Origin: the human T2T-CHM13v2.0 reference genome, Homo sapiens
DNA: 64,000 nucleotides
Strand: one strand, 5' to 3'
Assembly: GCF_009914755.1 (NCBI RefSeq)
Contig: NC_060947.1
Shown here: one piece after another, positions 1,618 through 51,342 of the stretch
How the letters are laid out: each line of letters starts with the position of its first letter
Position numbering within the stretch: position 1 is the first letter of the stretch
Position numbers and translations under genes: made by a program
Notes under the pieces: model-generated
Told to the model about the DNA's origin: nothing
Databases searched by the model: none
The model's input: the letters and a program-made list of their open reading frames with translations, nothing else

Positions 1618-4600
1618 GTTTTCCAAGGAAACATAATAAACTAAAAGTCATTTGGGCATTTTTTTCTTCCTAGAACTTTTTAGCAGGTAGTTTTCTTCAA
1701 TTAAAAGGAAACTTTTTAGGTGGAGTAAGATGGCAGAATAGAAGGTTACATAATTTATCCCCCTTCTGGAAGACCAAATTTTAACAACTAACTACACACA
1801 AAAAGCATCATCAAGAACCAAAAGTCAGGTGAACAATCACAGTACCTGGTTTTAACTTTATATCACTGAAAGAGACACTGGAGAGAGTAGGAAAGATCAT
1901 CTTGAAGTGCCAACACCAACCGTCCTCCATCCCCTTGCAGTGGCCACATGACATGGATATTCCATGTGCTTAGGAGATGCAGAGCACAGCAATTGTGAGG
2001 ATTTGCATTGAACTTTGTGCTGTCCTATCACAGCGGAAAGCAGAACCAGGCTGTATTCACCTAACATCTACTCGTGGAAGGAGCACTTTGATCAGCCCTA
2101 GCCAGAGGGAAATTACCCATCTCAGCACTGGAGCTTGAGTTTCCACAAGCCTCACCACTGCAAGCTGGAGTGCTCTGGTGCCCTAAGTGAACTTGAGAGA
2201 CATCTAGGCCACAAGGACTGCAATTCTTAGGCAAGTTCTAGTGCTGAGCTGGGCTCAGAGCCCGTGGACTGGGGGGACATGTGACCTTCTTAGACATCAA
2301 CCAGGGTTTCTAATGGAGTAATTGTGTCACTCCTCATACACTCTTTGGCAGCAGCCACATAGTGGGAAGAAATCTGTGTTTGTGAGAGGGAGAATACAGC
2401 AAATGTGAGATTTTACATTGACCTCAGTGCTGCCTTGTCACAGCTGAGACCTGGCAGGATTCATCACCTGATAACTAAAAAGCCCCTGGGCCCTTAATAA
2501 CCAACAGAAATACCCAGGAAACATGTCATGGACATTGGGCTTTGAGGTGTGTGGGCTCCAGGCGTGACCCAACACGTTCCCAGATGTGGTGGCTATGGAG
2601 ACTCCTGTTTGAGAAAAACATGGGAAAAGTAAATAAAAATCTGTCTTGCACCTTAGGAACTAGCTCAGCCACAGTGGGGTAGAGCACCAACAAGATACTT
2701 GGGGTCACTGAGTCCAGGTTTAGGCTTTTCGTCAACATTTCTAGACCTGCCCTGAGTCAAAGAGTAACTCCCAGGCCTGGCAGCATTTATCACAAACTGA
2801 CTGAAGAGCCCTAAGGCTTTAAGTGCAAGTTGATGATGGCCTGGCAGAAACCCCATGGGCTAGTAGTGGTGGCAGTCATAGGGAAAGATTCCTTTACCTG
2901 TGGAAAAAGGAGGAAAGAGTAGGAAGGAATTTATTTTGCTGTTTGAGTGCCACCTTAGTCACACTAGAGTAGAACACCAGGTAAATTTCTAAGATTTTTA
3001 TCTTTAATGTCTGGCTCCCAGACAGACTCTCTGGACCCACCTAGGGCCTAAGGGAATTCACTTCCCTGAAGGAAGGGACAAAAACCTGGCTGGCTTTGCC
3101 ACTTGCTGATTGTAGAGTCCCAGGGGCTTAAGTGAACTTAGGTGGTAGCCATGTAGTGGTTACAATGGTGGGCCTTGGGTGAAATTCAGTGTTGTGCTGG
3201 CTTCAGTTTTGAACCAGTGCAATCCCTGTGGTGGTGGCCACAGTGACGCTTGTGTTACCCCCACTACACATCCAGGTGGCTCATCTCAGAGAGAGAGACT
3301 CCATTTGTTTGGAAGAAATTAAGGGAAGAAAAAAAGAGACTATGCTTGGTAATCCAGTTAATTCTTCTAGATATTATCCAAGACCACCAAGGTGGTACCT
3401 CAACAAGCAAGAACCACAGTGTTGTTGAGTTTATGCCTCAAATCTCTCCAAATACCTGAAAAACCTTCCCAAGAAGGATGGGCATGAACAAGACCAGGAT
3501 GTGAAGACTACGATAAATACCTAACTCTGCAATGCCCAGACATAGATGGACATCTTCAAGCATTTAGATCATCTAGGTAGATAAGACCTCAGCAGACAAA
3601 GTAAGGCACCAAGGACAAGTACTGGAAGAACAGAGATATGTGACCTTTCAGATAGTAAACTCAAAATAGCTGTTTTGATGAAATTCAAAGAAATTCAAGA
3701 TAATAGAGAAGGAATTCAGAATTTTATGAGATAAATTTAACAAGGAGATTGAAATAATTAAAAGAATCAAGAAAAAATTCTGGAGTTGAAAAATGCCATT
3801 GACATACTCTAGAATGCATCAGTCTCTTAATAGCGGAATTGATCAAGCAGAAGAATTAATGAGCTTGAAAATAGGCTATTTGAAAACACACAGTAAGAGG
3901 AGACAAAAAAAGGAATAACAAACAGTGAAATACACCTACAAGACCTAGAGAATAGTCTCAAAAGGGCAAATTTAAGAATTATTTTCCTTAAAGAGAAGGA
4001 AGATAAATAGGGGTAGAAAGTTTATTAAAAGGGATACTAGCAGAGAACTTTAGAAACCTAGAGAAAGGTATTAATATCTAAGCACAAGAACATTATAAAC
4101 CATAAGCAGATTTAACTCAAAGGAAACTACCTTAAGGCATTTAATAATCAAAGTTACAAAGGTCAAGGATAAAGAAAGAATCCTAAAAGCAGCAAGAGAA
4201 AAGAAACAAATAATATACAATGGAGCTCCAATACACCTGGCAGCAGACTTTTCAGTAGAAACCTTTCAAGCCAGGAGAGAGTTGCATGACATATTTAAAG
4301 TGCTAAAGAAATAAAAAAAATTTTACACTAAAATTATGTATGCAGTGAAAGTATCCTTTAAGTATGAAGGAGAAATAAAGACCTTCCCAGACAAACAAAA
4401 TCTGAGGAATTTCATTAAGACTAGATCTCTCTTACAAGAAATGCTAACGGGAGTTATTGAATCAGAAGATAAAGGATGTTAATGAGCAACAATAATTCAT
4501 CTGAAGGTACAAAACTCACTACTAACAGCACACAGAAAAACACAGAGTATTATAACACTGTTATGGTAGTGTGTACTCTTAAATTAAAAGACCGAATGAT

Positions 4601-5181
4601 AAACCAATCAAAAATAATACGTGCAACATGTTTTCTAGACATAGTACAATAAGACATAAAGAGAAACAAAGTAAAAAAGTAGGGAGATAAGGTTAAGATA
4701 TAGAGTTTTTGTTAGTTTTATCTTTGCTTATTTATTTTGCATGCAATCAGTGTTAAGTTCTTGTCAATTTAAAATAATGTGTTACAAGATAGTACTTATA
4801 AGCCTCACGGTAACCTTAAATCAGAAAACATACAACAAATTCAAAAATAAAATAAAAAGCAAAACATTGAATAATACCACCAGAGAAAATCACCTTCACT
4901 AAAAGGAAGACAGAAAGAATGGAAAAAAGGAAAGGAAGACTATAAAACAACCAGAAAACAAATAACAAGACAGTGGGAGTAAGTGCTTACTTACCAATAA
5001 CACTGAATGTAAATGGACTAAACCCTCCAATCAAGACACAGAGTGGCTGAATGGACAAAAAAGCAAGACCCAATGATCTATTGCCTACAAGAAACACACT
5101 TCACCTATAATCACACATATAGGTTGAAAATAAAGTGATGGAAAAAGATATCCCATGCCAACTGAAATCAAAAAAGAGTAA

Positions 5182-5400
<219 letters not shown>

Positions 5401-8400
5401 TAGCTTTATATATATCAGACAAAATAGATTTACAGACAAAAACTATATAAAGTATCAAAGAGAGTAATTATGTAACAATAAAGGGGTAAATTTAGCAAGA
5501 GGACATAAAAATTATAAATATATATGGACCAACATTGGAGCACCCAGATATATAAAGCAAATATTCTTAGAGCTAAAGAAAGCTAGATCTGAATACAATA
5601 ATAGCTGCAGTCTTCACCAACTGACTTTCAGCATTGGACAGTACTTTCAGGCAAAAAATGAACTAAGAAACAGCAGTCTTAATCTGCACTATAGATCAAA
5701 TGGATCTAAATAGATATTTACAGAACATTTTATACAACAACAGCAAAATACACATTCTTCTCAGCACATGGATCATTCTAAGCCTAGACCATATGTGAGG
5801 TAAACAAGTCTTTAAAAATTCAAAACAATTGACATAATATTAAGCATCTTCTCTGACCACAATGGAATAAAACTGCAAATCAAAAAAGAGAAATTTTGGA
5901 AACTCTACAAACACACAGATATTAAACAATATGCTCCTGAATGATCAGTGGGTTGATTAAGAAATTAAGAAGAAAATTAAAAAATTTCTTGAAACAAATA
6001 GTAATGGAAACACAACATACCAAACCTACAGGATATAGCAAATGCAATACTAGGAGAAAAATTTATAGCTATAAGTGCCTACATCAAAAAAGAAAAAAAA
6101 ACTTTCCAATATATAACCTAATGATGCATCTTAAAGAAACTGGAAAAGCAAGAGAAAACTAAACCCAAAATTAGTAGAAGGAAAGAAATAATAAAGATCA
6201 GAACAGAAATAAATGAATTTAAAATGAAGAAAACAATGCAAAAGATCAATAAAACAAAAAGCTGGGTTTCTTAAAAGTTAAACAAAATAGACAAAACTTT
6301 AGCCAGACTAACTGAGAAAAAAGAGAAGATCAAAATGAATAAAATCAGAGATGAAAAAGACATTATAGCTGATACTGTAGAAATTCAAAGGATCATTACT
6401 GGCTACTATCAGCAACTGTACGCAAAAAAAATTTGGCAATTCTAGAGGAGATGTATAAATTTCTAGACACCTACAACCTACCAACACTGAACCAGGCTGA
6501 AATCCAAAATCTGAACAGGCCAATAACAAGTAATGAAATTTAAGCCATAATAAAAAGTCTCCTAGTAAAAAAAAAAAAAAGCCTGGAATCTGATGCTTTC
6601 ACTGCTGAATTCTACCAAACATTTAAAGAAAAGCTAATACCAATATTACCCAAACTATTCCAAAAATAGAGGAGAAGAGGATATTTTCAAACTCATCTTA
6701 TTAGACCAGTATTACCCTGACACCCAAAGTAGACAAAGGCACATCAAAAAAAAGAAAACTACAGGCGAATATCTCTGATGAATATTGAGCAAAAATGCTC
6801 AACAAAATACTAACAAACTGAACACAACAATACACTAAAAAGATTGTTAATCTTGACAAAGTGGGATTTATCCCAGGGATGCAAAGATAGGTAAACATAT
6901 GCAAATCAATTAATGTGATACATCATATCAACAGAATGAAGGCCAAAGCCATATTATCATTTAAATTGATGCCAAAGAAGCATTTGATAAAATTTAACAC
7001 ACTTTCATGATAAGAACTCCAAAAACCTTGATATACAAGGAACATATGTCAACATAAGAAAAGCCATATATGTCGGATCCTCAGCTAGTATCACAATGAA
7101 TGACGAAAAACTAAAAGCCTGTCCTCTAAGATATGGAACAAGGCAAGAATGCCCACTTTTGCACTGTTGTTCAACATAGTTCTGGAAGTTCTAGCTGGAG
7201 CAATCAGACAAGAGAAGGAAAAAATGTTTATCCAAATTGGAAAGGAAGAAGTCAGATTATCCTTGTTTGCAGATTGCACGATCTTATATTTGAAAATATG
7301 AAGACTTCAACAAAAACTATTAGAATAAACAAATTTAGTAAATTTGCAGATACAAAATCAACATAAAATATCATTAGCATTTCTATACGCCAGCAGTGAA
7401 CAATCTAAAACAGAAACAAAGTAATCCCATTTACAATAGCCACAAATAAAATTAAATACATAAAAATTAACCAATGACATGAAAGAACTCTACAAAAAAA
7501 CCCTGCAAAACACTGATGAAAGAATTTAAAGAGAAAACAAAAAATGAAAAGATATTTTATGCTCATGGACTGGAAGAATCAATATTGTTAAAATGTCAAG
7601 ACAACCAAAAGCAATCTACAGTGCCTTTGCAACCCCTATCAATATACCAATTACATCTTCACAGAAATAGACAAAACAATTTTAAAATTTATATTAGATG
7701 ACAAAAGAAACACAGTACCCAAAGCTATCCTGACCAAAAGATCAAAACTGGAGAAATCAGATTACCTGACTTCAAATTATACTACTGAGTTAGAGTAACC
7801 AAAAACAGCATGGTACTTGCATAAAAAGAGGCACATAGATAAATGGGACAAAACAGAGATCCCAGAAACAAATCCATACACCTACAGTGGATTCCATCTT
7901 TGACAAACGTGCTAGGAATACCAATTTGAGAAAGGATAGTCTCTTTAATAAATGGTACTGGGAAAACTAGATATCCCTACGCAGAAGAATAAAACTTGAC
8001 ATATATCTTTTGCCATATACAAAAATAAGATAAAATTTGATTATAAATTTAAGCCCAAGACCTCAGACTTTGAAACTACTACAGAAAAATTTTGGGAAAC
8101 TCTCCAGGACATTGATTTGGGCTAAAATTTCTTGAGTAATACCCAACAACCAGGACAGGCAAACAAAGCAAAAATGGAAAAATGGGATCACATGAAGTTA
8201 AAAAGCTTCTGCACAGCAAAAAAAGCAATCAACAAAATGAAGAGACCACTCACAAAATAGGAAAAACTATTTTCAAACTACCCATCTGACAAGGGATTAA
8301 TAATCAGAATATAAAAGGAGCTCAAACATTTCAATTGGAAAAAAAAATCTAATAATATTAAAAAATGGGCCAAATATTTTAATGGAAATTTCTCAACAGA

Positions 8401-8837
8401 GGACACACAAATTGCAAATTGATCCATAAAAAGGTGCTCAACATCACTGATCATCAGAGAAATGCAAATAAAAACTACAATGCTACATTATCTCACTCCA
8501 TTTAAAATGACTTTTAGACAAAAGATAGGCAATAACAAATGCTGGATGAGGATGTGGAGAAAGGGAATCCTTGTACACTGCTGCTGGGAATGTAAACTAG
8601 TACAACCACTATGAAGAACAATTTGTATGTTTCTCAAAAAACTAAAAAGAGAGCTGACATATAATCCAGAAATCCCACTGCTGGGTATATACTTCACCCC
8701 TCAAATAGAAGAAAATCAGTATATAAAAAAGATATCTGCATTCTCACATTTGTTGCAGCACTGTTTACAATAGTAAAAAATTGGAAGCAACCTAAGTGCC
8801 CATCAACAGATGAATGGATAATGAAAATGTGGTACAT

Positions 8838-11183
8838 CAAAAAGCTAATCCACCGCAATCCAGTAGCCTTTATCCCTGGATGCAAGTTTGGTTCAACAAA
8901 CACAAATCAACAAATGAGATCAGATAAAGAGAACTACAAACAAAAAACACATGATTATTTCAGTAGATGCAGAAAAAACTTTTGATAAAATTCAACATCT
9001 TTTCATGTTAAAAACTTGCAATAAACTAGGTATTGAAGAAACATTCCTCAAAATAATAAAAGCCATGTATGACAAACCACAGCCAATATAATATTGAATT
9101 TTCAAAAGTTTGAAGCATTCCCCTTGAAAACTAGCACAAGACAATGATGCCCTCTCTCACCACTCCTATTCAGCATAGTATTGGAAGTCGTGGCCAGAAC
9201 AATTAGGCAAAAGAAAGAAATAAAGAGCATTCAAATAGGAATACGGGAAGTCAAACTATCCCTATTTGCAGACAACATGATTCTTTATGTAGAAAACCAC
9301 AGTCTCAGCCTCAAACCTCCTTCAGCTGATAAACAAGTTCAGCAAAATCTCAGGATACAAGATCAATGTATGAAAATCACTAGCATTTCTTTACACCAGC
9401 AACAGCCAAGCCAAGAGCAAACCAGGAACACAATTTCATTCACAGTTGCCACAAAAAGAATAAAATACCTAGGAATACAACTAACCAGGGCAGTGAAATA
9501 TTTCTACAACAAGAATTACAGAACACTGCTCGATGAAATCAGAGATGACACAAATAAATGGAAAAACATTCCATATTCCAATATTGTTAAAATAGCCTTA
9601 CAAACCAAAGCAATTTCTAGATCCAATGCTTTTCCTATTAAACTATTTTACCAATGACATTCTTTACAGAACTAGAAATAAGTATTTAAAAATTCATATA
9701 AAACGAATAGCCATGGAAGTCCTAATCAAAAAGAACAAAGCTGGAGGCATCATGAAACTCAACTTCCAACTACTACAGGGCTACAGTAACTGAAACTGCA
9801 TGGTACTGATACCAAAACAGACACATTGATCAATGAAACAGAATAGAGAGCCCAGAAATAAGGCTGCACACCTACAACTAACTGATCTTTGACAAAGCTT
9901 ACAAAAACAAGCAATGGGGAAAGGGTACCCTATTTAATAAATGATGCTGGAATAACTGGCTAGCAATACGCAGAAGATTGAAACTGGACCCCTTCCTTAC
10001 ACTATGTACAGAAATTAACTCAAGATGGATTAAAGACTTAAATGTAAAACCGCAAACTATAAAAACCATGAAAGACAAATTAGACATTTTGGACATAGGA
10101 ATGAGCAAAGATTTAATGATGAAGATGCCAAAAACAATTGCAACAAAAGCAAAAATTGACAAATGAGATCTATTTAAACTATAGAGCTTCTGCCCAGGCA
10201 TAAAAACTGTTAGCACAGTACACAGACAACCTACAGAACGGGAGAAATTTTTTGCAAACTATGCATCTGATAAAGGTCTAATATCCAGCATCTATAAGAA
10301 ACTTAACCAAATATACAAGAAAAAGAAAACCCATTAAAAAGTGGACAAAGGACATGAGCAGACACTTCTCAAAAGAAAACATACAAGTGGCCAATAAGCA
10401 TATGAAAAAAAAGCTCAACATCACTGATCATTAGAGAAATGCAAATCAAAACCATAATAAGATACTATCTCACACAAGTCAGAATGGCTGTTATTTAAAA
10501 GTTAAAAAATAACAGATGCTGGCAAGGTTGTGGAGAAAAAAGATTGCTTATATATTATTGGTAGGAATGTAAATTAGTTAAACCCTTGTGGAAAACGGTG
10601 TGGATAATCTTCAAAGACCTAAAAACAGAATTACCATTTGACCCAGCAATCCCATTACTGGATATATATCCAGAGGAATATAAATCATTCTACTAATAAA
10701 GAGACATACACGGGAGTGTCCATAGCAGCACTATTCACAGCAGCAAAGAGATAAAATCAACCTAAAAAATGCCCATAAGTGGCAGAGTGAATCAAAAAAA
10801 TGTGGTGTATGTACACCATGGAACACTATGCAGCCATAAAAAATGAGATCATGTCTTTTGCAGGAACATGGATGGAGCTGGAAGCCATTATCCTCAGCAA
10901 ACTAATGCAGGAAGAGAAAACCAAATACCACGTTCTCACTTATAACTAGGAGGTAAATGATGAGAACTCATGGATACAAAGTGTAGAACAACAGACACTG
11001 GGGCCTACTTGAGGGTGGCAGATTTGAGGGAGAAAAGTATCTGAAAAAATAACTATCGGGCACTAGGATTAGTACCTGGGTGATGAAATAATCTGTACAG
11101 CAAGCCCCCATGACACAAGTCTACCTATATAACAAATCTGCACATATACCACTGAACCTAACATAAAAGTTTTTTTAAAAAGC
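8838..11183 (+). mobile_element. 5'-truncated L1PA15/16-like LINE-1 nested in the L1MA
   Basis: Jumps back to RT-domain sequence at 8838 and has its own 3'UTR and tail. TSD AAATGTGGTACAT at 8825-8837 and 11184-11196. Confidence 0.85.
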
Positions 11184-11792
11184 AAATGTGGTACATATAC
11201 ACAATGGATTACTATTCAGCAATAAAAAGGAATGACATCTTTTCATTTGCAACAACATGAATGGAACTGGAGGTCTTTCTGTTAATTAAAATAAGTCAGG
11301 CATGGAAAGACTAACTTCATATGTTGTCACTTATTTGTGGGTGCTAAAAATCAAAACAATTGAACTCATAGAGATCAAGAGTAGGATGGTTACCAGAGGC
11401 TGGAAGGTAATGAGGGTTTGAGGGGAAGTGGAGGTAGTTAATGGGCACACAAACAAAAAAATAGTTAAAGAGTGAATAAGACCTAGTATTTGATAGCACA
11501 GCAGGGTGACTAAATAATAATCATTTAATTGTACATTTTATAATAACTATAATGTTATAATTGGATTTTTAGTAACACAAAGGATAAATCCTTGAGGGGA
11601 TGTATACCCCATTTTCCATGATGTGATTATTACATATTACATGCCTGCATCAAAGCACCTCATGTACCCCATAAATATATACACCAACTATGTACCCACA
11701 AAAATAATGAAACAAAAATAAATAAATAAAAAACAAAAGGGAACTTTTTTTTGAGCATTAAGACTTATTTATCCTTTAATACACAATATTAA

Positions 11793-12298
<506 letters not shown>

Positions 12299-12299
12299 T

Positions 12300-15230
12300 G
12301 TTGTGCACTTTTAAACACCTAGAAAGACTAGACGTTTCAAACTGGACTTAAGTTTTCCATTATATACACAGTAGCATTGAATAAATGGTATACATACATA
12401 ACACAGACAGTAATTTGAGTGTCTTCTAAATAGGAACATTCTGGCCTAGAACCCTTCCTTTTCCCACCTCTACCAACCCCGTGGACAGCTATAAGCCATC
12501 TGTAATGCTTAGGGTGGATTTTAACAATTTCACTTCTGTTTTTAAGAAGTCTTCCCTATGAATTTTAACACAAAGTGTACTCAATGCATTAGTTTACTAA
12601 TTCTACTTTTGTCATACACTGGCAACCTCTTTAACATCGACTACATGTAAATTAGGACTCCTATGTCCGCTTATATACACTATATACACAGCACAGTAAA
12701 TGAAAATGCAGACATAAGGGACAATGGTCAATGTGCCTCATCATAAACACAGTGGACACTGGTAGAAAGCCCTTTGCACTTTGTGCTCCTCCTTCCCCCT
12801 GAACCAGCACAAATATCATAATCTGTACTGCTCAGAGAATTGATCAATTTCCAAGACAATATTTCATATCAAAAGGATAGCTACAAAATGTGTTATTTAC
12901 TATCTCTACTTTTAACATACTTTGTGCACTTCTAAACATCTAGAAAGACCAGTTGTTTCAAATAAGGACTTAAGTTTGTCCGCTGTATACACAGTAGTGT
13001 TGAATAAACTACACACGTAACAATAGTTATATCTGAAAGTGTCTTCTAAATAGGAACATTCTGGTATAGAATGCTTCATTCCTTCCAACTCCTCTCCACC
13101 ACCAACCTGGTGGATATAGGCACGTGTCACTTAGAGCTGATGTTATCATTTCACTTCCGAAAGTCCTTTTCAGAAGACAGCCTTTCTATGAATTTTAACG
13201 AAGTGTACAAAATGTGTTAGTTTACTAACCCTACTTCTGTCATACATTGGCAACCTCTTTAATATCTAGAGACTAGATATTATAAAATCGGACTCATTTG
13301 TCCAGTATATACACAATATATAGAGTGTAGCAAAGTTAAATGAAATGCACGTAACATATAGGCAATGGATTAAGCGGAAATTTTCTAATAAACAATGGCA
13401 AAACACCTTTTGCAACTTCTTCCCTCCCACCTCCCAGGTGGTTCAACAATTCCACTTCCAAACAGCATTTCCCATCAGTTTTTAAAAGCTATTTACAAAA
13501 AGTGTTATTCTACTACTTTTAAATACATCAAGCACTTCCAAATATCTAGAAAGACTAGATATTTCATACTTGTCCACCACGTACACAGCACTGTTAAAAT
13601 TACACACACATAACAATGGTTATCATCTGAGGTATCTTCTAAATGTGACCACTTTGGCCTTGAATCATTCCCTCCCCTCTTCCTTCTCTGCCTTCAATCC
13701 AGTGGACAAGTACAGGCACGTGTAATGCTTAGAGATGGTTGAATAAATTCCTATGCAAAAGTCATTTACAGAAGACAAGTTTTCCTATGAATTTCAACAC
13801 AAAGCATACAAAATATGCTAATTTTACTACTTTGTCATACACTGGCAACCTCTTTAATATCTAGAAACTAGATGTTGAAAAATTAGGACTATTTGTCCAT
13901 TATATACACTATATACAGAGCAAAACAAAATGCACAAAACATACAGAAAAATGGTGTCTGGAAATGTTCAAGTATGAACACACTAGTATATTACCTTTTG
14001 CAATTTCTTTCCTCCCACCTCCTCTAAACCACTGAACAAGTATAGACATTACTATACTGTTCACAAAGGTGGCTTCAAAATTCAATTTCCAAAAGTATTT
14101 CCTATGAATTTTAGCAAAAAGATATTTACAAAGTGGTATTTTACTACCTCTACATTTAACATACATCAGGCACTTCTAAACATCTAGATAGACTAGATGT
14201 TTCAAGTAAGGAGTTAATTTGTCCACTATGTACACAGCAGTCTTGAATAAACTGCAAACATGTAACAACAGTTATAATTTGAAAGAGTCTTCCAAATGTG
14301 AACATTCTGGCCTAGAACCCTTCCCATCTCCATCAACCTAGTGGGTAAGAATGCTCAAATTTTCAGAAGACAATCTTTCCTAGGACTTCTAAAACAAAAT
14401 GTACAAAATATATTAGTTTTCCTAGGACTTGTAAAACAAAATGTACAAAATATATTACTCTACTTTTGTCATACACTGGCAACCTCTTTAACATCCAGAA
14501 AGACTAGATGTTGTCAATTAGGAATCGTTTGTCCTTTATGTACACTATATACACAGATAAGTAAAACAAAATGCACAGAGATAATGATTCATCTTGTAAA
14601 AAGGATGGCATAGAGCTCTCTGCACCTCCCCCTCCTCTCTCCTCCCCTGAACCACTGCACAAACACAATGAGTATTACTCCACAGGTGATTTGGCCATTC
14701 CCCTCAAACAAATTTCCTATGAATTGTAACAAAAAGATACTTACAAAATGTGATTTTGCTACCTCTAATTTTAACATATCAGTACTTCAGAACATCTAAA
14801 AAGAACAGACATTTCAAAAAAGCTTAGCATTGTCAACTATGTACACAGTAGTGAGGAATAAAATGCACACAAAACAATGGATAGAATACGAAAATGTCTT
14901 CTAAATATGACCAGTCTAGGAAAGAACCTTCTTCTCTTCCTTCTCAGGTCTTCTAGCTCCTTGTCATCTAACCCACCGAACAAACGTGGACGTATAGCTT
15001 CCAGAGCCCGTCTAACAACTCCATTTCCAAAAGTCATCTCCAGAAGACATGTATTTTCTATTATTTATTTTAAACAAATGAGAATTTACAAGACGTGTGA
15101 CTTTCTAACTCTACTTTATCATACGTCGGCAACCTCTTTCCATCTAGAAGGGCTAGATGTGACAAATGTTTTCTATTAAAAGGTTGGGGTGGAGTTGAGA
15201 GCAGTTTTTTCATATTATATACACAGGCCT
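12300..15230 (-). repeat. NORAD repeat-unit array: five A/B pairs (~600-650 bp period) with hairpins and PUMILIO response elements
   Basis: GGCAACCTCTT at 12621, 13249, 13844, 14478 and 15128. An interleaved CACTTCTAAACATCTAGAAAGACTAGA-like motif at 12306, 12927, 13533, 14171 and 14783. Confidence 0.88.
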
Positions 15231-15339
15231 TCCATAAACGGCCAGTAAATCTTCCCAGAGGGTGGTGGGCATTTCCAACGGGCCAAACGTGGCCTGTCAT
15301 TCTATCATTTCTCTCTTTCGACAGCAAGGTCTGGTAGAA

Positions 15340-15965
15340 CGAAGACCAACCGCCCGATGGCCGCTAACAGTTCCACCCGTCGCCGTCTGGGACTTCGCTC
15401 ACCTACCAGGCCGGTTAAGCCCTTTGTCCGTTGTCTTCAGGACTAGGTAGGTCTCGCCCAATGGCGACAGAGTGGTCACCTGGGACCCGGATCTGCGCGG
15501 CTCCGTGGCCTAAAGAGGCGGCCTAGCCTGCCTGCGTCCCTGGGCCGCTTTCCCGGGCCCTCCACGCCCTAACAGCCTCCGCCGCGCGGCGTTCGAGCGG
15601 CCGCCATGCTTCCCGGCCCTCCACTCCTGCAGCCGCCCAAAGGCGCTGCGTCCCGACAGCTCTGCGGAGGTTTAGCGGAGGCCCGGTAGGCTTGGGCCGG
15701 GGGGGTTCGGGCTGGGAGAGGCCGCCCCCGCCATCAGTCACCGAGGTGGGAGGGGGGGAAGAGAGGTTCGCTGTGGCTTCAAGGCCTGGGCACAGCCAGT
15801 GGGCAGCCACAGCAGAGGCCTCCATCCGGTATCTGCAGGGCAGAGGGCTCAGACTGTCCCGGGGCCCCCCAGTTCACCCGCCGGCCAGGGGCCGGAGGGC
15901 CTGGAGGCCCCTGGAGTAGCAGGCCGCATTCTTCGTCTCTCCGCGCTCTCTGCCGGACCTGAACT
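15340..15965. promoter_or_regulatory. CpG-rich island-like segment (5' head of the NORAD retrocopy)
   Basis: High GC with many intact CpGs (e.g. CCGCCGCGCGGCGTTCGAGCGGCCGCC) in an otherwise AT-rich, CpG-depleted window. Regulatory activity is not shown. Confidence 0.55.
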
Positions 15966-17389
15966 CACAAAAGTGAACTTTTTATAAATAGAAGTAAAAG
16001 CCAAAAATAAAATGTGACCTTATTTTACACACAGACACACACACAACCACAAAAGGCAGACAGCTGCAGAATGTTTAGCTCTAAATGGGTGATGTAAAGA
16101 GTTTTGTTGGCCAATGCTATAATGATTATAAATCTCGACCCTAAAATCATTCAGGCTTTGAGTGAAATTTATTAGATCTAGCCATTACAAAATTTAGCCA
16201 GATTTAAAATTTTACAGTATAAGGCATGACTATTTATGAGGCGATTATCATACTTTAGATAGAAATTAGTAAATTTTCAAATATCTTTCTGTGTAAATTA
16301 ACTCAATTAAAAAAAGATACAATAATATCCCTTCTTGTTTTTTTATATTTTTACTTGATTTGGCTTAGCAGGAAATGTTTTCCAAAGATTTTGGTAGGGT
16401 GAGTGCAGTTCAATCAGGTTTTGGAATTGTTGCACAAAGATATGGTAGAACAGGTCAATGCCTTACAATTATAGACATTTTGATTCTGACTTTAAATTAT
16501 GAGATTTAATCTAGAATTTATATTAATGTTTAAGGCAACATACACAGCATTGTGGTGATCAGTGTGTATGTATGGCAACTGTTACACATTGTTACTTTGG
16601 AAGTGTGGTTATTTTTAAAAAGCTGTATGTTCAAATAAGCATAAGTTTCTTGTCTATCTTATCACCCCAAGAAACATGGTATTCAGTAAAATCAATCAGA
16701 TTTGGCTGGTTGTTTTATTTGGTTTTAGTCATTAACATTTTTCACCCACAATTCATATAACCACTTAAAATTGTGTGCTATTAGCATATAATAAAAATAA
16801 TATCTGTGCCTCCTGGGCTCAAAAGTTAGCAGCAGGATGTCCTGACTCAATAGCAGGCTTTTCTGCATTAAAGTTCCATTCTTTTTCTTAAGTGGATAAA
16901 ACCAGGTTCAGAAAGCTGGAGCTGGTCTTTAGAACAATATACAGTTTGTCATGAGATCATGAGAATGTGTGCTATAAGCCAAAGTAGCTTATATCCCATG
17001 AGGATATGTAAAATCAATCATTAAAGAAATGGCTTCTTTTGGTATCTTCAGAAATTAAAAAAAAAAAAAGGATAGTTAAAAATCCCTCCCCAAGATCCAC
17101 GGTGTGCCTGGCCTTAATTAGGGTATCTGAGAAATAAACTGACCTGATTAACACAACACTACACCATTCTAATTGCCATAGTATTACCAGACAAGTGTCT
17201 TTTATAAAAAAAGCATGCCTCAGTTTCATCACATTTAACATTTTTTAGTGTACTGTAACAAACATCCCATTTGCAAACCTTGCTAGGAGATTTTAGACAC
17301 TCAGATTTCAAAGACAATGGTGTAGTGACAAGAATATGGGAAAAAGGTTCAATACTGGATTAATGAAAGTGAGAACAATATGTTATTCA

Positions 17390-17890: not shown

Positions 17891-20800
17891 TTTTTTTAAT
17901 TTCAATACTTTTTAGAAAACGGGGTTTTTTATTACATGGACAAGTTCTTTCGTGGTAATTTCTGAGATTTTGGTGAATCTGTCAGCCAAGCAGTGTATAC
18001 TGTACCCAATGTGTAATCTTTTATCCCTCACCACCTTCCCCATTCCCCCAGAGTCCCCGAAGTCCACTATTTCATTCTCTATCATATGTCTTTTCATCCT
18101 TATCGCTTAGTTCCCACTTATAAGTGAGAACATACGAAATTTGTTTTCTGCTTCTGAGTTGCTTTACTTAATGGTCTTCAACTCATCCAGGTTGCTTTGA
18201 ATGCCTTTAGTTCATTTCTTCTAATGGCTGAGTAGTATTCCATGGTGCCACATTTTCTTTATCCACTCGTTGGTTGATGGGCATATACGTTCCATATTTT
18301 TTCAATTGTGAATTGTGCCACTGTAAGCATGTGTGTGCAAGTGTCTTTTTCATATAATGACTTCTTTTTCTCTGGGTAGATACTCAGTAGTGGAATTGCT
18401 GGATCAAATGGTAGTTCTACTTTTAGTTCTTTAAGGAATCTCTGTACCATATTCCATAGTGGTTGTACTAGTTTACATTCCCATTGGCATTGTAAAAGTG
18501 TTCTCTTTACATTCACATCAACATCTATTTTTTTTATTATTTTATTATGGCCATTCTTGCAGGAGTAAGGTGGTATCACATTGTGGTTTTGATTTACATT
18601 TCCCTGATAATTAGTGATGTTAATAATTTTGTCATGTTTCCTGATCATGTGTAGTATATGTTCTTTTGAGAATTGTCTATCCGTGTCCTTTCTCCACTTT
18701 TTGATGGGGCTGGGTTTTTTTCTTACTGATTTGTTTGAGTTCCTTGTAGATTCTGGATATTAGTCCTTTGTCTGATGCACAGTTTGTGAAGATATGCTTG
18801 CATTCTCTGTGTTGTGAGTTTACTCTGCTAATTATTTCTTTTGCTGTGCAGAAACTTTGTAGTTAAATTGGGCACCATGTATTTATTTTTGTTTTTGTTG
18901 CATTTTCTTTTGGGTTTTTGGTCATGAAGTCTTTACATAAGCCAACATCTAGGAGAACTTTACCAATGTTTCCTTGTAGAATTTTTCATGGTTTCAGGTC
19001 TTAGATTTAAGTCCCTGATCCATCTTGAGTTGATTTTTGTATAAAATGAGAGATGTGGTTTCAGTTTTATTCTTCTACATGTGGCTTGCCAATTATTCCA
19101 GCACCATTTGTTGAATAGGGTTTCCTTTCCTCACTTTATGTTTTTGATGCTATGTCAAAGATCGGTTGGCTGTAATTATCTGGGTTTATTTCTGGGTTCT
19201 CTATTCTTTTCCATTGGTCTACATGCCTATTTTTATATCAGTACCATGCTGTTTTGGTAACTGTAGACTGTAGGATAGTTTGAAGTCAGGTAATGTGATG
19301 CCTCCAGATTGGTTCCTTTTGTTTAGTTGTGCTTTGGCTATGCAGAATCTTTTCTGGTTCCACATAAATTTTAGGATTTTTTTCTAGTTCTGTGAAGAAT
19401 GATGATGGTACTTTGTTGGGAATTGCATTGAATCTGTAGATTGCTTTTGGCAGTATGGTCACTTTTATAATACTGAATCTACCCATCCATGAGCATGGGA
19501 TGTGTTTTTATTTGTATGTGTCATCTATGATTTCTTTCAGCAGTGTTTTGTAGATTTTCTTGTAGAGATCTTTCTCCTCCTTGGTTAGGTATATTTCTAT
19601 GTATTTTATCATTTTTGCAGCTGTTGTGAAAGGGGTTGAGTTCTTGATTTCTCAGCTTTGCCATTGTTGTTGTATAGCAGTGCTACTTATTTGTAAGCAT
19701 TGATTTTGTATCTTGAAACTTTACTGAATTCATTTATCAGATCTAGAAGTCTTTTGGATGAGTCTTTAGATTTTCTAGGTATACAAACATATCATTAGTG
19801 AACAGTGACAGTTGGCTTCCTCTTTACCAATGTGGATGCTTTTTATTTTTTTCTCTTGTCTGATTGGTCTGGCTAGAACTTCCAGTACGATGTTGAATAG
19901 AAGCGGTGAAAGTGGGCATCCCTGTATTGTTCGAGCTCTCAGGGGGAATGCTTTTAACTCTTCCTCATTCAATATAATGTTGGCTGTGTGTTTGTCATGG
20001 ATGGCTTTTATTACCTTGAGATATGTCTCTTCTATGCCAATTTTGCTGAGGGTTTTGATCATAAATAGAGGCTGGATTTTGTCAAATACTTTTTCTGCAT
20101 CTGTTGAGATAATCATATGATTCTTATTTTTAATTCTCTTTATGTGATGTATTACACTTATTGATTTGCATATGTTAAACCACCCCTGCATTCCTGGTAT
20201 GAAACCTACTTGATTATAGTATATTATCTTTTTGACATGCTGTTGGATTTGGTTAGCTAGTGTGTTGAGTATTTTTTGCATATATTCATCAGGAATATTG
20301 CTTTGTAGTTTTTTATCTTTTTTTGTATGTCCTTCCTGGTTTTGGAATTAGGGTGATACTGGCTTCCAAGATTGATTTGGGGGGGCGGATTTTCTCTTTC
20401 TCTCTCTTTTGTAATAGTTTCAGTAAAATTGATACCAATTTTTCTTTGAATGTCACAAAGAATTCAGCTGTGAATCCACCTTGTCCTGGAGTTCTTTTTG
20501 TTGACAGTTTTTAAATTACTGTTTCAATATCGCTATTTGTTATTGGTCTGTTCAGAGTTTCTATTTCTTCCTGATTTAACCTGGGAGGATTGTATATTTC
20601 CAGGAATTTATTCATATCCTCTAGATTTTCCAGTTTTTCTGTAAAAAGATGTTCACAGTAGCCTTGAGTAAGCTTTTGTATTTCTGTGGTATCGGTTGTA
20701 AGATATCGTGTTTCATTTCTAATTGAGCTTATTTGGATTTTTCTCTTTTCTTGGTTAATCTCACTAATGGTCTATCAATTTTGTTTATCTTTTCAAATAA

Positions 20801-20972
20801 CCATTTTTTTGTTTTAGTTAACTCTTATTTTTTGTTTCAATTTCATTTAGTTCTGCTCTGATCTTTGTTATTTCTTTTCTTCTGCTGAGATTGAGTTTGT
20901 TTGTTTCTCTAGTTATTTGTGGTGTGACCTTGGATTGTCTATTTGTGCTCTTTAAGACATTTTAATGTAGCC
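17891..20972 (-). mobile_element. L1PB1-like LINE-1 3' portion (ORF2 RT to 3'UTR)
   Basis: L1PB1-type 3'UTR (GGACAAGTTCTTTCGTGGTAATTTCTGAGATTTTGGTG). ORF 19775-20281 encodes [13 protein letters not shown]...[19 protein letters not shown]. Confidence 0.85.
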
Positions 20973-22448
20973 ATATATATTAGTTAGCTCTTCTTGTTGC
21001 ATCAATACCTTTACCAGTATATAGTGCCCTTCTTTGTCTTTTTTGATCTTTGTTGGTTGAAAGTCTGTTTTATCAGAGACTGGTATTGAAACTTCTGCAT
21101 TTTTTTTTGCTTACCATTTCCTTGGTAAATATTTCTCCATACTTTTATTTTGAGCCTATATGTTTCTTTGCACGTGAGTTGGGTCTCCTGAATGCAGCAT
21201 ACTGATGAGTCCTGACTCTTTATCCAGTTTCCCAGCCTCTGTCTTTTAATAGGGGCATTTAGGCCATTTACATTTAAGGTTAATATTGTTATGTGTGAAT
21301 TTGATCCTGTCATCATTTTGCTAGCTAGTTATTTTGCACACTAGTTGATGCAGTTTCTTCATTGTGTCATTGGTCTTTCTATTTTGGTGTGGTTTTGAAG
21401 TGGTTGGTACTGGTTTTTCCTTTCCATATTTAGCGCTTCTTTCAGGAGCTCTTGCAAGGCAGGTCTGATGATGAAAAAATCCCTTAGCATTTACTTGTCT
21501 GAAAAAGATTTTTTTTCTCCTTCACTTATGAAGTTGTTTGGCTGGATATGAAATTCTGGGTTGAAAATTCTTTTCTTTAATAATGTTGAGTATTGGCCCC
21601 CACTCTCTTCTGGCTTGTAGGGTTTCTGCTGACAGATCTGCTGTTAGTCTGGTGGGCTTCTCTTTGTAGATGACCTGACGTTGCTCTCTGCCTGCCCCTA
21701 ACATTTTCTTCTTCACTTCATCCTTGGAGAATCTGATGATTATGTGTCTTGGGGTTCATCCTCTCATGGAGTATCTTAGTGATGTTCTCTGTATTTTCTG
21801 AATTTGAATGTTCGTCTGTCTTGTTAGGTTGGGGAAGTTCTCCTGGATAATCATCCCAGATCCATTCCAGACTGCTGTGCTAGCAGTGAGAATTTCAAGC
21901 CAGTGGTTCTTAGCTTGCTGGGCTGTTTGAGAGTGGGACCTGCTGAGCAAGACCACTTGGCTCCCTAGCTTCAGCCCCCTTTCCAGGGGAGTGAAAGTTT
22001 CTGTCTTGCTGGGGTTCCAGGTGACACTGAGGTATGAGAAACCAACAAAGAAACTCCTCCAGCTATCTCGGTGTCTTCCCAACAGCCGCCCAGTTTTGTT
22101 CTTGAAACCCAGTGCCCTGGTCGTGTAGGCACACGAGGGAATCTCCTGGTCTGAGAGTAGCAAAAACCATGGGAAAAGCATAGTATCCTGGCTGGATAGC
22201 ACAGTTCCTCACGGCTTCCCTTGGCTGGGGGAGGGAGGCCCCGGGTTCCTTGCACCTCCTGGGTGAGGTGATGCCCCACCCTGCTTCTGCTCACCCTCTG
22301 TGGGCTGCACCCACTGCCTAACCAGTCCCAATGAGATGAACAGGGTACCTCAGTTGGAAATGCAGAAATCACCTGCCTTCTGCATTGGTCTCGCTGGGAG
22401 GTGCAGACTGGAGCTGTTCCTATTTGGACCTCTTGCCTGATCTCCTCC
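20973..22448 (-). mobile_element. L1PA7/8-like 5' portion (5'UTR, ORF1 3' part, ORF2 EN start) with an internal deletion at ~21853
   Basis: ORF 21011-21316 reads MTGSNSHITILTLNVNGLNAPIKR. ORF1 C-terminal fragments are present. Minus-strand start GGAGGAGATCAGGCAAGAGGTCCAAATAGGAACAGCTCC. Confidence 0.8.
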
Positions 22449-37740: not shown

Positions 37741-38585
37741 TGTCAAGAATGTCATTGGTATTTTAATGGGGACTGCATTGAATCTGTATATTGCTTTGGG
37801 TAGCATGGACATTTTAGCAATGTTGATTTCTCCAAATCATGAACATGGGACACCTTTCCATTTTATTTTTGTTTTCAGTTTCGTACATCAATGTTTTACA
37901 CTTTTTATTGTAGAGATCTTTCACTTCTTTTATTAGGTTAACTCCTAAGTATTTTATTTTATTTGTAGCTATTGTAAATGAGATTACTTTCTTGATTTCT
38001 TTTTTTCAGATTGTTTTCTATTGGCATATAGAAATGCTACTGATTTTTGTATGGTGATTTTTTTTATCCTGTAACTGTACTGAATTTGTTTCTCAGTTCT
38101 AATAATTTGTTTTGGGGAGTCTTTTGGTTTTTCCAGATATAAGATTATATCGTCTGCAAACAAGGATAATTTGACTTCCACCTTTTGAATGTAAATGTTC
38201 TTTATTTCTCTCTTTGTCTGTTGATTTCTTGTACTATGTTGAAAAAAATAGTAAAAATGAGTGCTCATCCCTGATTTTTTTCCAGATCTTAGAGAAAATG
38301 TTTTCAAATTTTCCCCATTCATTATGATACCAGATATTGGTCTATCATATATGCATTTTATTGTATTGGAGTATGTTCCTTCTAGACCCAGTTTTTTCAG
38401 ATTTTTATTATGAAGGGATGCTGAACTTTATCAAATGCTTTTTCAGCATCAATTGAAATGATCATATGGTTTTTGCCCTTCATTCTGTTTTTATGATGTA
38501 ACATGTTGATTGATTTGCACATGTTGAACCATCCTTCTGGTGTCTCTGGGATAAATCTCACTTGGTCATGATAAACAAAATGATC
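37741..38585 (-). mobile_element. L1MA-type ORF2 RT fragment
   Basis: Minus ORFs contain [20 protein letters not shown] and [19 protein letters not shown]. Confidence 0.8.
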
Positions 38586-39038
38586 GGGGATGGAGCCAAG
38601 ATGGCCGAATAGGAACAGCTCTGGTCTACAGCTCCCAGAGTGAGCGACACAGAAGACGGGTGATTTCTGCATTTCCATCTGAGGTACCGGGTTCATCTCA
38701 CTAGGAAGTGCCAGACAGTGGGCGCAGGACAGTGGGTGCAGCGCACCATGTGTGAGCCAAAGCAGGGCGAGGCATTGCCTCACTCGGGAAGCGCAAGGGG
38801 TCAGGGAGTTCCCTTTCCGAGTCAAAGAAAGAGGTGACAGATGGCACCTGGAAAATTGGGTCACTCCCACCTTAATACTGCACTTTTCCAACGGGCTTGA
38901 AAAACGGCACACCAGGAGATTATATCTTGCATCTGGCTCAGAGGGTCCCAAGCCCACGGAGTCTCGCTGATTGCTAGCACAGCAGTCTGAGATCAAACTG
39001 CAAGGTGGCAGCGAGGCTGGGGGAGGGGCGCCCGCCAT
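38397..39038 (-). CDS. L1 ORF0 (antisense 5'UTR ORF), open for 213 aa and reading through into the flanking L1 RT fragment; translation unproven
   Basis: ATG at 39038-39036 gives [29 protein letters not shown], the known ORF0 N-terminus. No stop until 38397. Confidence 0.5.
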
Positions 39039-39617
39039 TGCCCAGGCTTGCTTAGGTAAACAAAGCAGCCAGGGAAACTTGAACTCGGTGGAGCCCACCG
39101 CAGCTCAAGGAGGCCTGCCTGCCTCTGTAGGCTCCACCTCTGGGGGCAGGGCACAGACAAACAAAAAGACAGCAGTAACCTCTGCAGACTTACATGTCCC
39201 TGTCTGACAGCTTTGAAGAGAGCAGTGGTTCTCCCAGCACGCAGCTGGAGATCTGAGAACGGGCAGACTGCCTCCTCAAGTGGGTCCCTGACCCCTGATC
39301 CCTGAGCAGTCTGAGAGACACAGCCCAGTAGGGGCAGACGGACACCTCACACGGCCGGGTACTCCTCTGAGACAAAACTTCCAGAGGAACGATCAGACAG
39401 CAGCATTCGCGGTTCACGAAAGTCCGTTGTTCTGCAGCCACTGCTGCTGGTATCCAGGCAAACAGGGTCTGGAGTGGACCTCTAGCAAACTCCAACAGAC
39501 CTGCAGCTGAGGGTCCTGTCTGTTAGAAGGAAAACTAACAAACAGAAAGGACATCCACACCAAAAACTCATCTGTACATCCCATCATCATAGACCAAAAG
39601 CAGATAAACCCATAAAG

Positions 39618-40634
39618 ATGGGGAAAAAACAGAGCAGAAAAACTGGAAACTCTAAAAAGCAGAGCGCCTCTCCTCCTCCAAAGGAACGCAGTTCCTCACC
39701 AGCAACGGAACAAAGCTGGATGGAGAATGACTTTGATGAGTTGAGAGAAGAAAGCTTCAGATGATCAAACTACTCCAAGCTACAGGAGGAAATTCAAACC
39801 AAAGGCAAGGAAGTTAAAAACTTTGAAAAAAATTTAGATGAATGTATAACTAGAATAACCAATACAGAGAAGTGCTTAAAGGAGCTGATGGAGCTGAAAG
39901 CCAAGGCTCAAGAACTACGTGAAGAATGCAGAAGCCTGAGGAGCCGATGCGATCAACTGGAAGAAAGGGTATCAGTGATGGAAGATGAAATGAATGAAAT
40001 GAAGCGAGAAGGGAAGTTTAGAGAAAAAAGAGTAAAAAGAAACAAACAAATCCTCCAGGAAATATGGGACTAAGTGAAAAGACCAAATCTACATCTGATT
40101 GGTGTACCTGAAAGTGATGGGGAGAATGGAACCAAGTTGGAAAACACTCTGCAGGATATTATCCAGGAGAACTTCCCCAATCTAGCAAGGCAGGCCAACA
40201 TTCAGATTCAGGAAATACAGAAAATGCAACAAAGATACTCCTCGAGAAGAGCAACTCCAAGACATGTAATTGTCAGACTCACCAAAGTTGAAATGAAGGT
40301 AAAAATGTTAAGGGCAGCCAGAGAGAAAGGTCGGGTTACCCGCAAAGGGAAGCCCATCAGACTAACAGCAGATCTCTCGGGAGAAACTCTACAAGCCAGA
40401 AGAGAGTGGGGGCCAATATTCAACATTCTTAAAGAAAAGAATTTTCAACCCAGAATTTCATATCCAGCCAAACTAAGTTTCATAAGTGAAGGAGAAATAA
40501 AATACTTTACAGACAAGCAAATGCTGAGAGATTTTGTCACCATCAGGCCTGCCCTAAAAGAGCTCCTGAAGGAAGCACTAAACATGGAAATGAAAAACCG
40601 GTACCAGCCACTGCAAAATCATGCCAAATTGTAA
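39618..40634 (+). pseudogene. L1PA4 ORF1 with premature stops
   Basis: ATGGGGAAAAAACAG start and canonical 1017-bp span. Internal TGA (~39762) and TAA (40071-40073). C-terminus RYQPLQNHAKL. Confidence 0.9.
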
Positions 40635-40697
40635 AGACCATGGAGGCTAGGAAGAAACTGCATCAACTAATGAGCAAAATAACCAGCTAACACCATA

Positions 40698-44519
<3,822 letters not shown>

Positions 44520-45109
44520 ACAATGAGAACACATGGGCACAGGAAGGGGAACATCACACACCGGGGCCTGTTTTGGGGTGGGGGGGATGGGGGAGGGATA
44601 GCATTAGGAGATATACCTAATGCTAAATGACGAGTTCATGGATGCAGCACACCAACATGGCACATGTATACATATGTAACAAACCTGCACGTTGTGCAAA
44701 TGTACTCTAAAACTTAAAGTATAAAAAAAGAAAAAAATTTTACATTATGGTTTTATTTTATTATTATTCATAATAAAATTAATTTCCTCCTACATGCCAA
44801 TATAAAGACAGAGATGGTAACTACTTACTTCACCTTATAAAAGATGAGATGTAGAATACCTTACTCTTTACCTCTCTCTCATTATCCTATCACTTCCTAG
44901 TTTCAATAAATAATTCTGGAATGTTCTGATCAAGAAAATTTTCAAATAATAAAATCCATATCACAGAAATCTCAGATACATTCAGTTTTATAATTACATT
45001 ACACCTCCTTTCAAAGATTTAATTATTTAACCTATTTTATTGCTCACCATCACTTCTTCTGTAACCTGTTTTATCTGTTAATTTCTTAGTTCCAATGTAT
45101 TTCTCAATA

Positions 45110-45200
45110 ATTTTAACATTTGATTAAGCAAATATCTATTAAGAATTTAATATGAGCCAAGTGTTGAGGCAGGCTCTGGGGATATAGTAATGGAGAGGAT
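45110..45200 (-). mobile_element. L2 3' fragment
   Basis: AAGCAAATATCTATTAAGAATTTAATATGAGCCAAGTGTTGAGGCAGGCTCTGGGGATATAGTAATG. Confidence 0.55.
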
Positions 45201-45347
45201 TAATTTCCATACATGCAATGGTTATTGTATATTAAATGAATGGGTATTGTATTTGAACTTTAGCATTCTTTCATATGGAATGAAATTTTTAGGAATGGTA
45301 AGAACTACGTTTTGTATGTTCTATTCATTATTATTATAATTTTTTTA

Positions 45348-45511
45348 ATTTAGGAGGTCATTAGGCTGGGTAGCTCCAGTGCTTTAAGTAAGCAAACTGA
45401 AGCTCAATGTAAACAGTAAAATGAAACAAGGGACTTTACCAGTCAGAAAACAGCAACTAGCCTCTAACTAGGGTCTTTTCACTCTAACCAATCAAATAGG
45501 TTTTCTTTCTG
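45348..45511 (+). mobile_element. MER67-type ERV1 LTR 5' fragment, truncated by L1PA5
   Basis: GAGGTCATTAGGCTGGGTAGCTCCAGTGC...GTAAGCAAACTGAA...TGTAAACAGTAAAATGAAAC...CCTCTAACTAGGG. Confidence 0.6.

Positions 45512-46555
<1,044 letters not shown>

Positions 46556-50269: not shown

Positions 50270-51342
<1,073 letters not shown>

What the first reader, a model, noticed from the sequence alone, without database searches (positions are those of the whole stretch)
12361..15223. Thirteen canonical PUMILIO response elements retained, all on the NORAD-sense strand
Seen (manual count): plus-strand TATNTACA (UGUANAUA on the minus strand) starts at 12361, 12672, 12681, 13306, 13490, 13901, 13910, 14123, 14227, 14537, 14546, 14838 and 15216. 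Three of these are tandem pairs 9 nt apart. I saw none in the opposite orientation, and a few near-miss sites (e.g. ~12984, ~13318, ~14738) look decayed. Known: NORAD has roughly 15-18 PREs, and multivalency drives PUM condensation. Inference: binding capacity is largely intact. Whether retention exceeds neutral expectation is untested.
Basis: partly seen in the sequence, partly recalled or inferred. Interest (0 to 1): 0.7.

Follow-up and report, generated by a model that had tools for sequence, protein, structure and literature searches.

The report
NORAD pseudogene with neutrally inherited PREs
This X-chromosome stretch is a 4.2-kb, 91%-identical copy of the human NORAD RNA gene carrying 13 Pumilio-binding motifs, no more than chance decay would leave, so it is likely an ordinary silent pseudogene.

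Summary
They lie in a processed retrocopy of NORAD (window 15966 to 11750, minus strand): 91% identity, 17-bp target-site duplication, NORAD's own Alu, and an end at NORAD nt ~4243 of 5340. The motifs are inherited. Retention is what neutral decay predicts: 4 of 98 PRE positions differ from NORAD against 129 of 3003 elsewhere; 13 of 16 sites survive against 13.9 expected; 10 of 14 are intact against 10.6. Power is low: the same test finds no constraint on NORAD itself. Tichon 2016 reports four such >90%, >4-kb human pseudogenes, unexpressed except HCG11; this copy is very likely one. Two by-products are more interesting. Six of seven internally ending, A-tailed copies stop 12 to 21 nt after a poly(A) signal, which suggests short NORAD isoforms. 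And two sites canonical here are non-canonical in human NORAD, which appears to have lost them. Verdict: known kind, likely inert, low interest.

The parts
11750..15966 (-). Processed retrocopy of NORAD, colinear with NORAD nt ~1 to ~4243 of 5340; lacks the last ~1.1 kb
   Evidence: BLASTN to the chr20 locus L016: 91.0% over 4312 columns
15967..15983 (-). Target-site duplication, 5' copy (A-rich start, as at L1 endonuclease sites)
   Evidence: 17 bp, 1 mismatch to the 3' copy
11733..11749 (-). Target-site duplication, 3' copy; 8 A at the junction, 5 of them inside the duplication
11775..11780 (-). ATTAAA, matching NORAD nt 4220; likely the proximal poly(A) signal at which the source RNA ended
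   Evidence: One of only three A[AT]TAAA hexamers in NORAD; copy end lies ~18-21 nt downstream
12001..12301 (-). Alu inherited from NORAD (NORAD nt ~3665-3953), not a later insertion
   Evidence: The alignment to NORAD runs through it; six older copies lack it
15230..15966 (-). GC- and CpG-rich 5' segment of NORAD (transcribed part of its CpG island); the promoter upstream of the start site was not copied
   Evidence: GC 0.69, CpG o/e 0.66 in the first ~580 nt; no match to NORAD upstream DNA
12361..12368 (-). PRE, shared with NORAD nt 3596
12672..12688 (-). Tandem PRE pair, shared with NORAD nt 3278/3287
12984..12991 (-). Decayed PRE (canonical in NORAD nt 2975)
13306..13313 (-). PRE, 2 nt out of register with NORAD nt 2651
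13317..13324 (-). Decayed PRE (canonical in NORAD nt 2642)
13490..13497 (-). PRE, shared with NORAD nt 2469
13901..13917 (-). Tandem PRE pair; 13910 shared with NORAD nt 2042, 13901 canonical here but not in human NORAD (nt 2051)
   Evidence: nt 2051 is canonical in the chr12, chr6:26.4M, chr2:108.9M and chr9:116.2M copies
14123..14130 (-). PRE, shared with NORAD nt 1828
14227..14234 (-). PRE canonical here but not in human NORAD (nt 1724)
   Evidence: canonical in the chr6:26.4M, chr9:38.7M, chr6:29.0M and chr6:28.5M copies
14537..14553 (-). Tandem PRE pair, shared with NORAD nt 1445/1454
14738..14745 (-). Decayed PRE (canonical in NORAD nt 1244); the same variant occurs in two older copies
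14838..14845 (-). PRE, NORAD nt 1143, differing only at the free position
15216..15223 (-). PRE, shared with NORAD nt 764

Best explanation
The stretch is a 4.2-kb, 91%-identical copy of NORAD flanked by a target-site duplication, likely made by L1 reverse transcription of a short, proximally polyadenylated NORAD RNA in an Old World primate ancestor, and it is likely silent, its 13 PUMILIO motifs being inherited and lost at the background rate. Shown: colinearity from the transcript start, no upstream promoter DNA, the duplication, the inherited Alu, the end after ATTAAA, and PRE loss equal to expectation. Inferred: L1 as the agent, the proximal poly(A) origin of the 3' end, the age (younger than the Alu, which a paper finds in human and rhesus but not night monkey; end branch 0.032-0.033 changes per site), and silence (from annotation and one paper; no expression data could be read here).
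For: Retrocopy anatomy. Ladder-shaped tree with the copy branching from the NORAD line between the chr6:26.4M copy (taken as HCG11) and the chr12 copy, both nodes at 100 bootstrap; pairing with HCG11, chr12 or chr9:116M rejected, p-AU 1e-4, 4e-55, 1e-7. Neutral retention: 4 of 98 versus 129 of 3003, p=0.59; differences private to the copy 3 of 80, 2 of 84 and 1 of 52 against 1.60, 1.70 and 1.04 expected, and 13 of 16 sites against 13.9; 10 of 14 against 10.6. All 13 copies pooled: 83 of 138 against 77.2, z=1.09. Sister copies of like age hold as many sites (chr12: 16). Tichon 2016, section 5: the four >90%, >4-kb pseudogenes do not appear expressed except HCG11.
Against: Low power: keeping all 16 sites would have P=0.10, and NORAD itself shows no constraint in the same test (2 of 73 against 1.24 expected). 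The 5' CpGs have decayed little (5 of 55 shared CpGs to TpG/CpA, about twice background, much like HCG11's 3 of 44), so some promoter activity is not excluded. The three A beyond the duplication could be templated by NORAD, so internal priming is not excluded. Tichon 2016 gives no coordinates in the text or in the 2 supplementary files searched.
Confidence: 0.88

Rival explanations
1. The copy is transcribed at a low level in some tissue from its retained CpG-rich 5' end or by read-through, ends at the retained ATTAAA, and binds PUM as a minor HCG11-like target, without selection on it.
For: CpG-rich 5' end little decayed; ATTAAA kept; 13 canonical sites; an old L1 lies 2-6.5 kb upstream on the same strand; HCG11 is a precedent for an expressed, PUM-regulated copy (PMC5758885 passages).
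Against: No RefSeq gene; Tichon 2016 reports no expression for these copies except HCG11; the promoter upstream of the start site is absent; low CpG decay is shared by the chr12, chr5 and chr7 copies.
Confidence: 0.09
2. The copy is a functional second PUMILIO sponge whose PREs are kept by purifying selection.
For: 13 sites, including three intact tandem pairs; the tests are too weak to exclude mild selection.
Against: Three losses against 2.1 expected; PRE positions differ at 4.1% against 4.3% background; end-branch length fits the copy's place in the ladder. NORAD's action depends on abundance, ~400 copies per cell (PMC8594465 passages).
Confidence: 0.03

Closest known systems
NORAD (LINC00657), chr20
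   Same: 91% identical over 4.2 kb; same repeat array, 5' GC-rich segment and Alu; 11 of its 14 canonical PREs in the span are matched (one 2 nt out of register).
   Different: Lacks upstream promoter DNA, the last ~1.1 kb, the 15th PRE and the main AATAAA; three PREs decayed; two sites canonical that are not in human NORAD; no annotated transcript. The name of the chr20 locus is my assignment from its features (5.3 kb, 5' CpG island, 17 UGURUAUA matches, Alu), which agree with PMC4947167 and PMC11723954; no call labelled it.
HCG11 (expressed NORAD pseudogene, 6p22.2)
   Same: Retrocopy with target-site duplication, NORAD's Alu, a little-decayed 5' CpG segment and 16 canonical PREs; branches just before this copy.
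   Different: Full length and expressed at ~1/20 of NORAD, PUM-regulated. Not the parent of this copy (p-AU 1e-4). I assigned the name to the chr6:26.4M copy by position; PMC5758885 counts 19 PREs in HCG11, my counts are 14 to 20 by motif definition.
Unexpressed NORAD pseudogenes of Tichon et al. 2016 (four >90% over >4 kb)
   Same: My searches give four copies aligning over >4 kb at about 90% or more: chr12, this one, chr6:26.4M and chr9:116.2M (87-91%).
   Different: The paper gives no coordinates in what I read, so membership is inferred; it does not discuss PRE retention or truncated ends in the passages seen.

Membership tests
L1-mediated processed pseudogene | Colinear with the mature RNA, starting at the transcript start, without upstream genomic DNA | tested here: met
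   Alignment begins at the same NORAD position (nt 1-6) as four other copies; no upstream match except Alus
L1-mediated processed pseudogene | Target-site duplication with an A-rich start | tested here: met
   17 bp, 1 mismatch, 15967-15983 and 11733-11749
L1-mediated processed pseudogene | Untemplated 3' poly(A) remnant | tested here: inconclusive
   8 A at the junction: 5 belong to the duplication and 3 could be NORAD-templated; full-length copies show runs of similar length
L1-mediated processed pseudogene | Loss of introns | not testable with these tools
   NORAD is unspliced (PMC4947167)
NORAD-type PUMILIO-sequestering lncRNA | Many PREs on the sense strand in the repeat array | tested here: met
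   13 canonical, 0 antisense
NORAD-type PUMILIO-sequestering lncRNA | PREs conserved beyond background | tested here: not met
   low power, and the NORAD control also showed no constraint over this short interval
NORAD-type PUMILIO-sequestering lncRNA | Abundant cytoplasmic transcript from its own promoter | not testable with these tools
   No expression data; no RefSeq gene; literature statement against
NORAD-type PUMILIO-sequestering lncRNA | PUM1/2 binding and condensate nucleation | not testable with these tools
   Needs CLIP or in vitro assay
HCG11-like expressed NORAD pseudogene | Retained, little-methylated 5' CpG segment | tested here: inconclusive
   43 kept, 5 decayed, 7 otherwise changed; similar in expressed HCG11 and in other young copies

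The most novel reading that the evidence does not exclude
The copy froze a short NORAD isoform made at a proximal poly(A) site and is itself transcribed, for example in the germ line, from its retained CpG-rich 5' end as a 4.2-kb X-linked RNA with 13 PREs: a second HCG11-like PUMILIO decoy whose reads are routinely mapped to NORAD. The isoform half alone (NORAD retrocopies record proximal poly(A) sites at nt ~2152, ~2722 and ~4243, that is RNAs with 7, 10 and 14 PREs) I put at about 0.7, with interest about 0.35.
Probability: 0.06. Interest if true: 0.55.

Novelty: already known. Interest (0 to 1): 0.2.

Why it matters
As found, little: a likely silent NORAD pseudogene that can mislead read mapping and probe design. 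If transcribed, it would be an unrecognised high-valency PUMILIO ligand. The by-products have some use: the retrocopy series dates PRE losses in NORAD itself and points to three proximal poly(A) sites that would yield NORAD RNAs of lower PRE number, a testable way to tune PUM condensation, which is reported to depend on PRE number.

Tried and rejected
Selection on PREs: rejected by three tests. Origin from HCG11, the chr12 or the chr9:116M copy: rejected by AU tests. Alu as a later insertion: rejected, it is NORAD's. CpG segment protected relative to the Alu: p=0.008 in the raw pairwise count but gone once only CpGs shared by two relatives were counted (5' 43/5, body 10/1, Alu 4/1). Another copy ending at nt 4243: none seen among 50 matches to that part of NORAD. 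Rfam: 0 matches in 11000-17000. No ORF of 150 aa or more in the copy. Lee 2016 and Elguindy 2021 could not be opened, so I do not know whether Lee 2016 lists this locus. No relatives of this genome are held, so no orthologue test. Searches for NORAD short isoforms or retrocopy analyses listed nothing on the point by title or abstract start; poly(A)-site databases were not available and may already list these sites.

Full report
Observation. In 12302-15300 the count is 13 against a shuffle mean of 0.55 and a maximum of 5 in 1000. The three near-miss sites are real.

What it is. A search of the window's own genome gave 77 matches (40 of 64 candidates scored, so a lower bound), the best on contig 20. 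That locus has a 5.34-kb unit with a GC-rich 5' end, an Alu, a terminal AATAAA, 15 UGUANAUA and 17 UGURUAUA matches. I take it as NORAD because these features agree with Tichon 2016 (PMC4947167; passages, section 5 and figure legends read); no call names it. The window aligns to it at 91.0% over 4312 columns, from the transcript start to nt ~4243, through the Alu. The copy spans 15966 to 11750 on the minus strand and is flanked by a 17-bp duplication with one mismatch. No DNA upstream of NORAD's start was copied. This is the anatomy of a processed pseudogene; L1 as the agent follows from established knowledge.

Origin and age. Trees of 15 rows and of 11 of those rows (four short-coverage copies left out) are ladders leading to NORAD. 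This copy branches after the chr6:26.4M copy (taken as HCG11 by position) and before the chr12 copy, both nodes at 100 bootstrap (96 and 100). Pairing with HCG11, chr12 or chr9:116M is rejected (p-AU 1e-4, 4e-55, 1e-7). Its end branch is 0.032-0.033. It carries NORAD's Alu, which six older copies lack and which PMC11723954 (passages) finds in human and rhesus but not night monkey, so the insertion likely postdates the split from New World monkeys. The root is set by the Alu-less, most diverged copies, not inferred.

PRE accounting. NORAD has 14 canonical PREs in the copied span. The copy matches 11 (one shifted by 2 nt) and has lost 3. Its other two sites, 14227 and 13901, are non-canonical in human NORAD but canonical in four other copies each. 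So 16 positions are canonical in NORAD or in sister copies; this number comes from present-day sequences, not from a reconstructed ancestor.

Is retention above neutral? No. Pairwise, 4 of 98 constrained PRE positions differ, against 129 of 3003 non-CpG body positions (p=0.59). Differences private to the copy are 3 of 80, 2 of 84 and 1 of 52 for three pairs of reference copies, against 1.60, 1.70 and 1.04 expected; per-base rates predict 13.9 of 16 surviving, and 13 do (P of at least 13 = 0.84). Against matched AT-rich octamers, 10 of 14 are intact in register with 10.6 expected; over all 13 copies 83 of 138 with 77.2 expected (z=1.09). One loss (14738) is the same variant as in two older copies and may not be private; that leaves 2 losses against 2.1. 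Against my reading: the tests are weak. Perfect retention would have P=0.10, and NORAD as positive control shows 2 of 73 against 1.24 expected. The result is no hint of selection, not proof of its absence.

Expression. None could be measured. RefSeq has no gene here. Tichon 2016 says four human pseudogenes share >90% over >4 kb and do not appear expressed except HCG11; I find four copies of about that description, this one included, though the text and the 2 supplementary files searched give no coordinates. The 5' CpGs are little decayed: of 55 shared by NORAD and HCG11, 43 are kept, 5 became TpG/CpA and 7 changed otherwise, with 8 of 317 non-CpG C/G transitions, about twice background; fully methylated CpGs would decay roughly tenfold faster (recalled). 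HCG11 (37/3/4), chr12 (49/4/4) and chr5 (51/4/1) look alike, chr9:116M is more decayed (24/13/12). Weak promoter activity is thus not excluded but not special. Sponge function needs abundance, about 400 copies per cell for NORAD (PMC8594465 passages); PMC5758885 (passages) found even NORAD and HCG11 each under 1% of PREs in HEK293.

The 3' end. NORAD has only three A[AT]TAAA hexamers, at nt 2704, 4220 and 5317, and 0.8% of internal positions lie 10-30 nt after one. Of 30 loci examined (16 of them chosen by me, partly because their ends clustered), 9 end with an A run at the main site, 7 end internally with an A run, and 14 have no clear tail. Of the 7, this copy ends after the 4220 ATTAAA, two end at 2721-2722 after the 2704 ATTAAA, three end at 2152-2154 after an AGTAAA (one of 8 in NORAD), and one ends at ~2594 with no listed signal. 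This suggests minor proximal poly(A) isoforms in the ancestral germ line; Tichon 2016 describes a single major site. For this copy, internal priming on three templated A is a live alternative, and no second copy ending at 4243 was seen.

Literature. Searches: (listings and abstract starts). Passages read: PMC4947167, PMC6407921 (notes many NORAD pseudogenes), PMC5758885, PMC11723954, PMC8594465, PMC8353616 and PMC9186391. Lee 2016 and Elguindy 2021 were not held, and bioRxiv supplements are closed, so this locus or the proximal sites may be described there or in poly(A) databases.

Verdict. Real, exactly described, and ordinary: a likely silent NORAD retrocopy (0.88) whose PREs survive because it is young. 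Low-level expression without selection 0.09; selected decoy 0.03. Interest 0.2.

Noticed in passing
L021, L030, L031 (NORAD nt 2152-2154); L024, L033 (nt 2721-2722); window 11750 (nt ~4243); L020 (nt ~2594): A-tailed NORAD retrocopies end at recurring internal positions, 6 of 7 just after ATTAAA or AGTAAA: likely fossils of proximal poly(A) isoforms with 7, 10 or 14 PREs.
   Followed up: partly
L016 (NORAD nt 1724, 2051, 3081); window 14227, 13901, 12878: Human NORAD is non-canonical at three positions that are canonical in older copies; on the ladder tree the losses fall before the chr12 copy (1724), before the chr5 copy (2051) and before the chr9:116M copy (3081).
   Followed up: partly
L028 (contig 9, 38.68 Mb): An old copy keeps 9 of 12 PREs against 4.8 expected (p=0.015; 3 of 84 positions versus 12%, p=0.007), uncorrected, best of 13 tests; not significant after correction and not seen in the three-way counts.
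   Followed up: partly
window 14738-14745: The same A-to-G variant in this PRE occurs in the chr9:116M and chr6:29.0M copies but not in copies branching between them: recurrent mutation, old polymorphism or an RNA-level change.
   Followed up: no
L027 (contig 23, 77.69 Mb): A second, much older NORAD retrocopy on X, about 78% identical, Alu-less, with its 5' CpGs almost all decayed (2 kept, 23 decayed).
   Followed up: partly
L018, L022, L029 and contig 6:28.91 Mb: Four NORAD-like copies lie within 26.4-29.0 Mb of contig 6.
   Followed up: no
window ~14390-14450 and ~11920: A 33-nt tandem duplication (NORAD nt ~1543) and a 33-nt deletion (nt ~4037) relative to NORAD, useful as copy-specific markers.
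   Followed up: no
window ~17900-22430, 4000-11730 and 38400-51500: Decayed LINE-1 sequence flanks the copy; RT fragments at 19778-20281 (-), 42298-42951 and 48760-49473 (+), L1 ORF1 domains at 40074-40631. A further PRE match at 11676 lies in this flank, outside the copy.
   Followed up: partly
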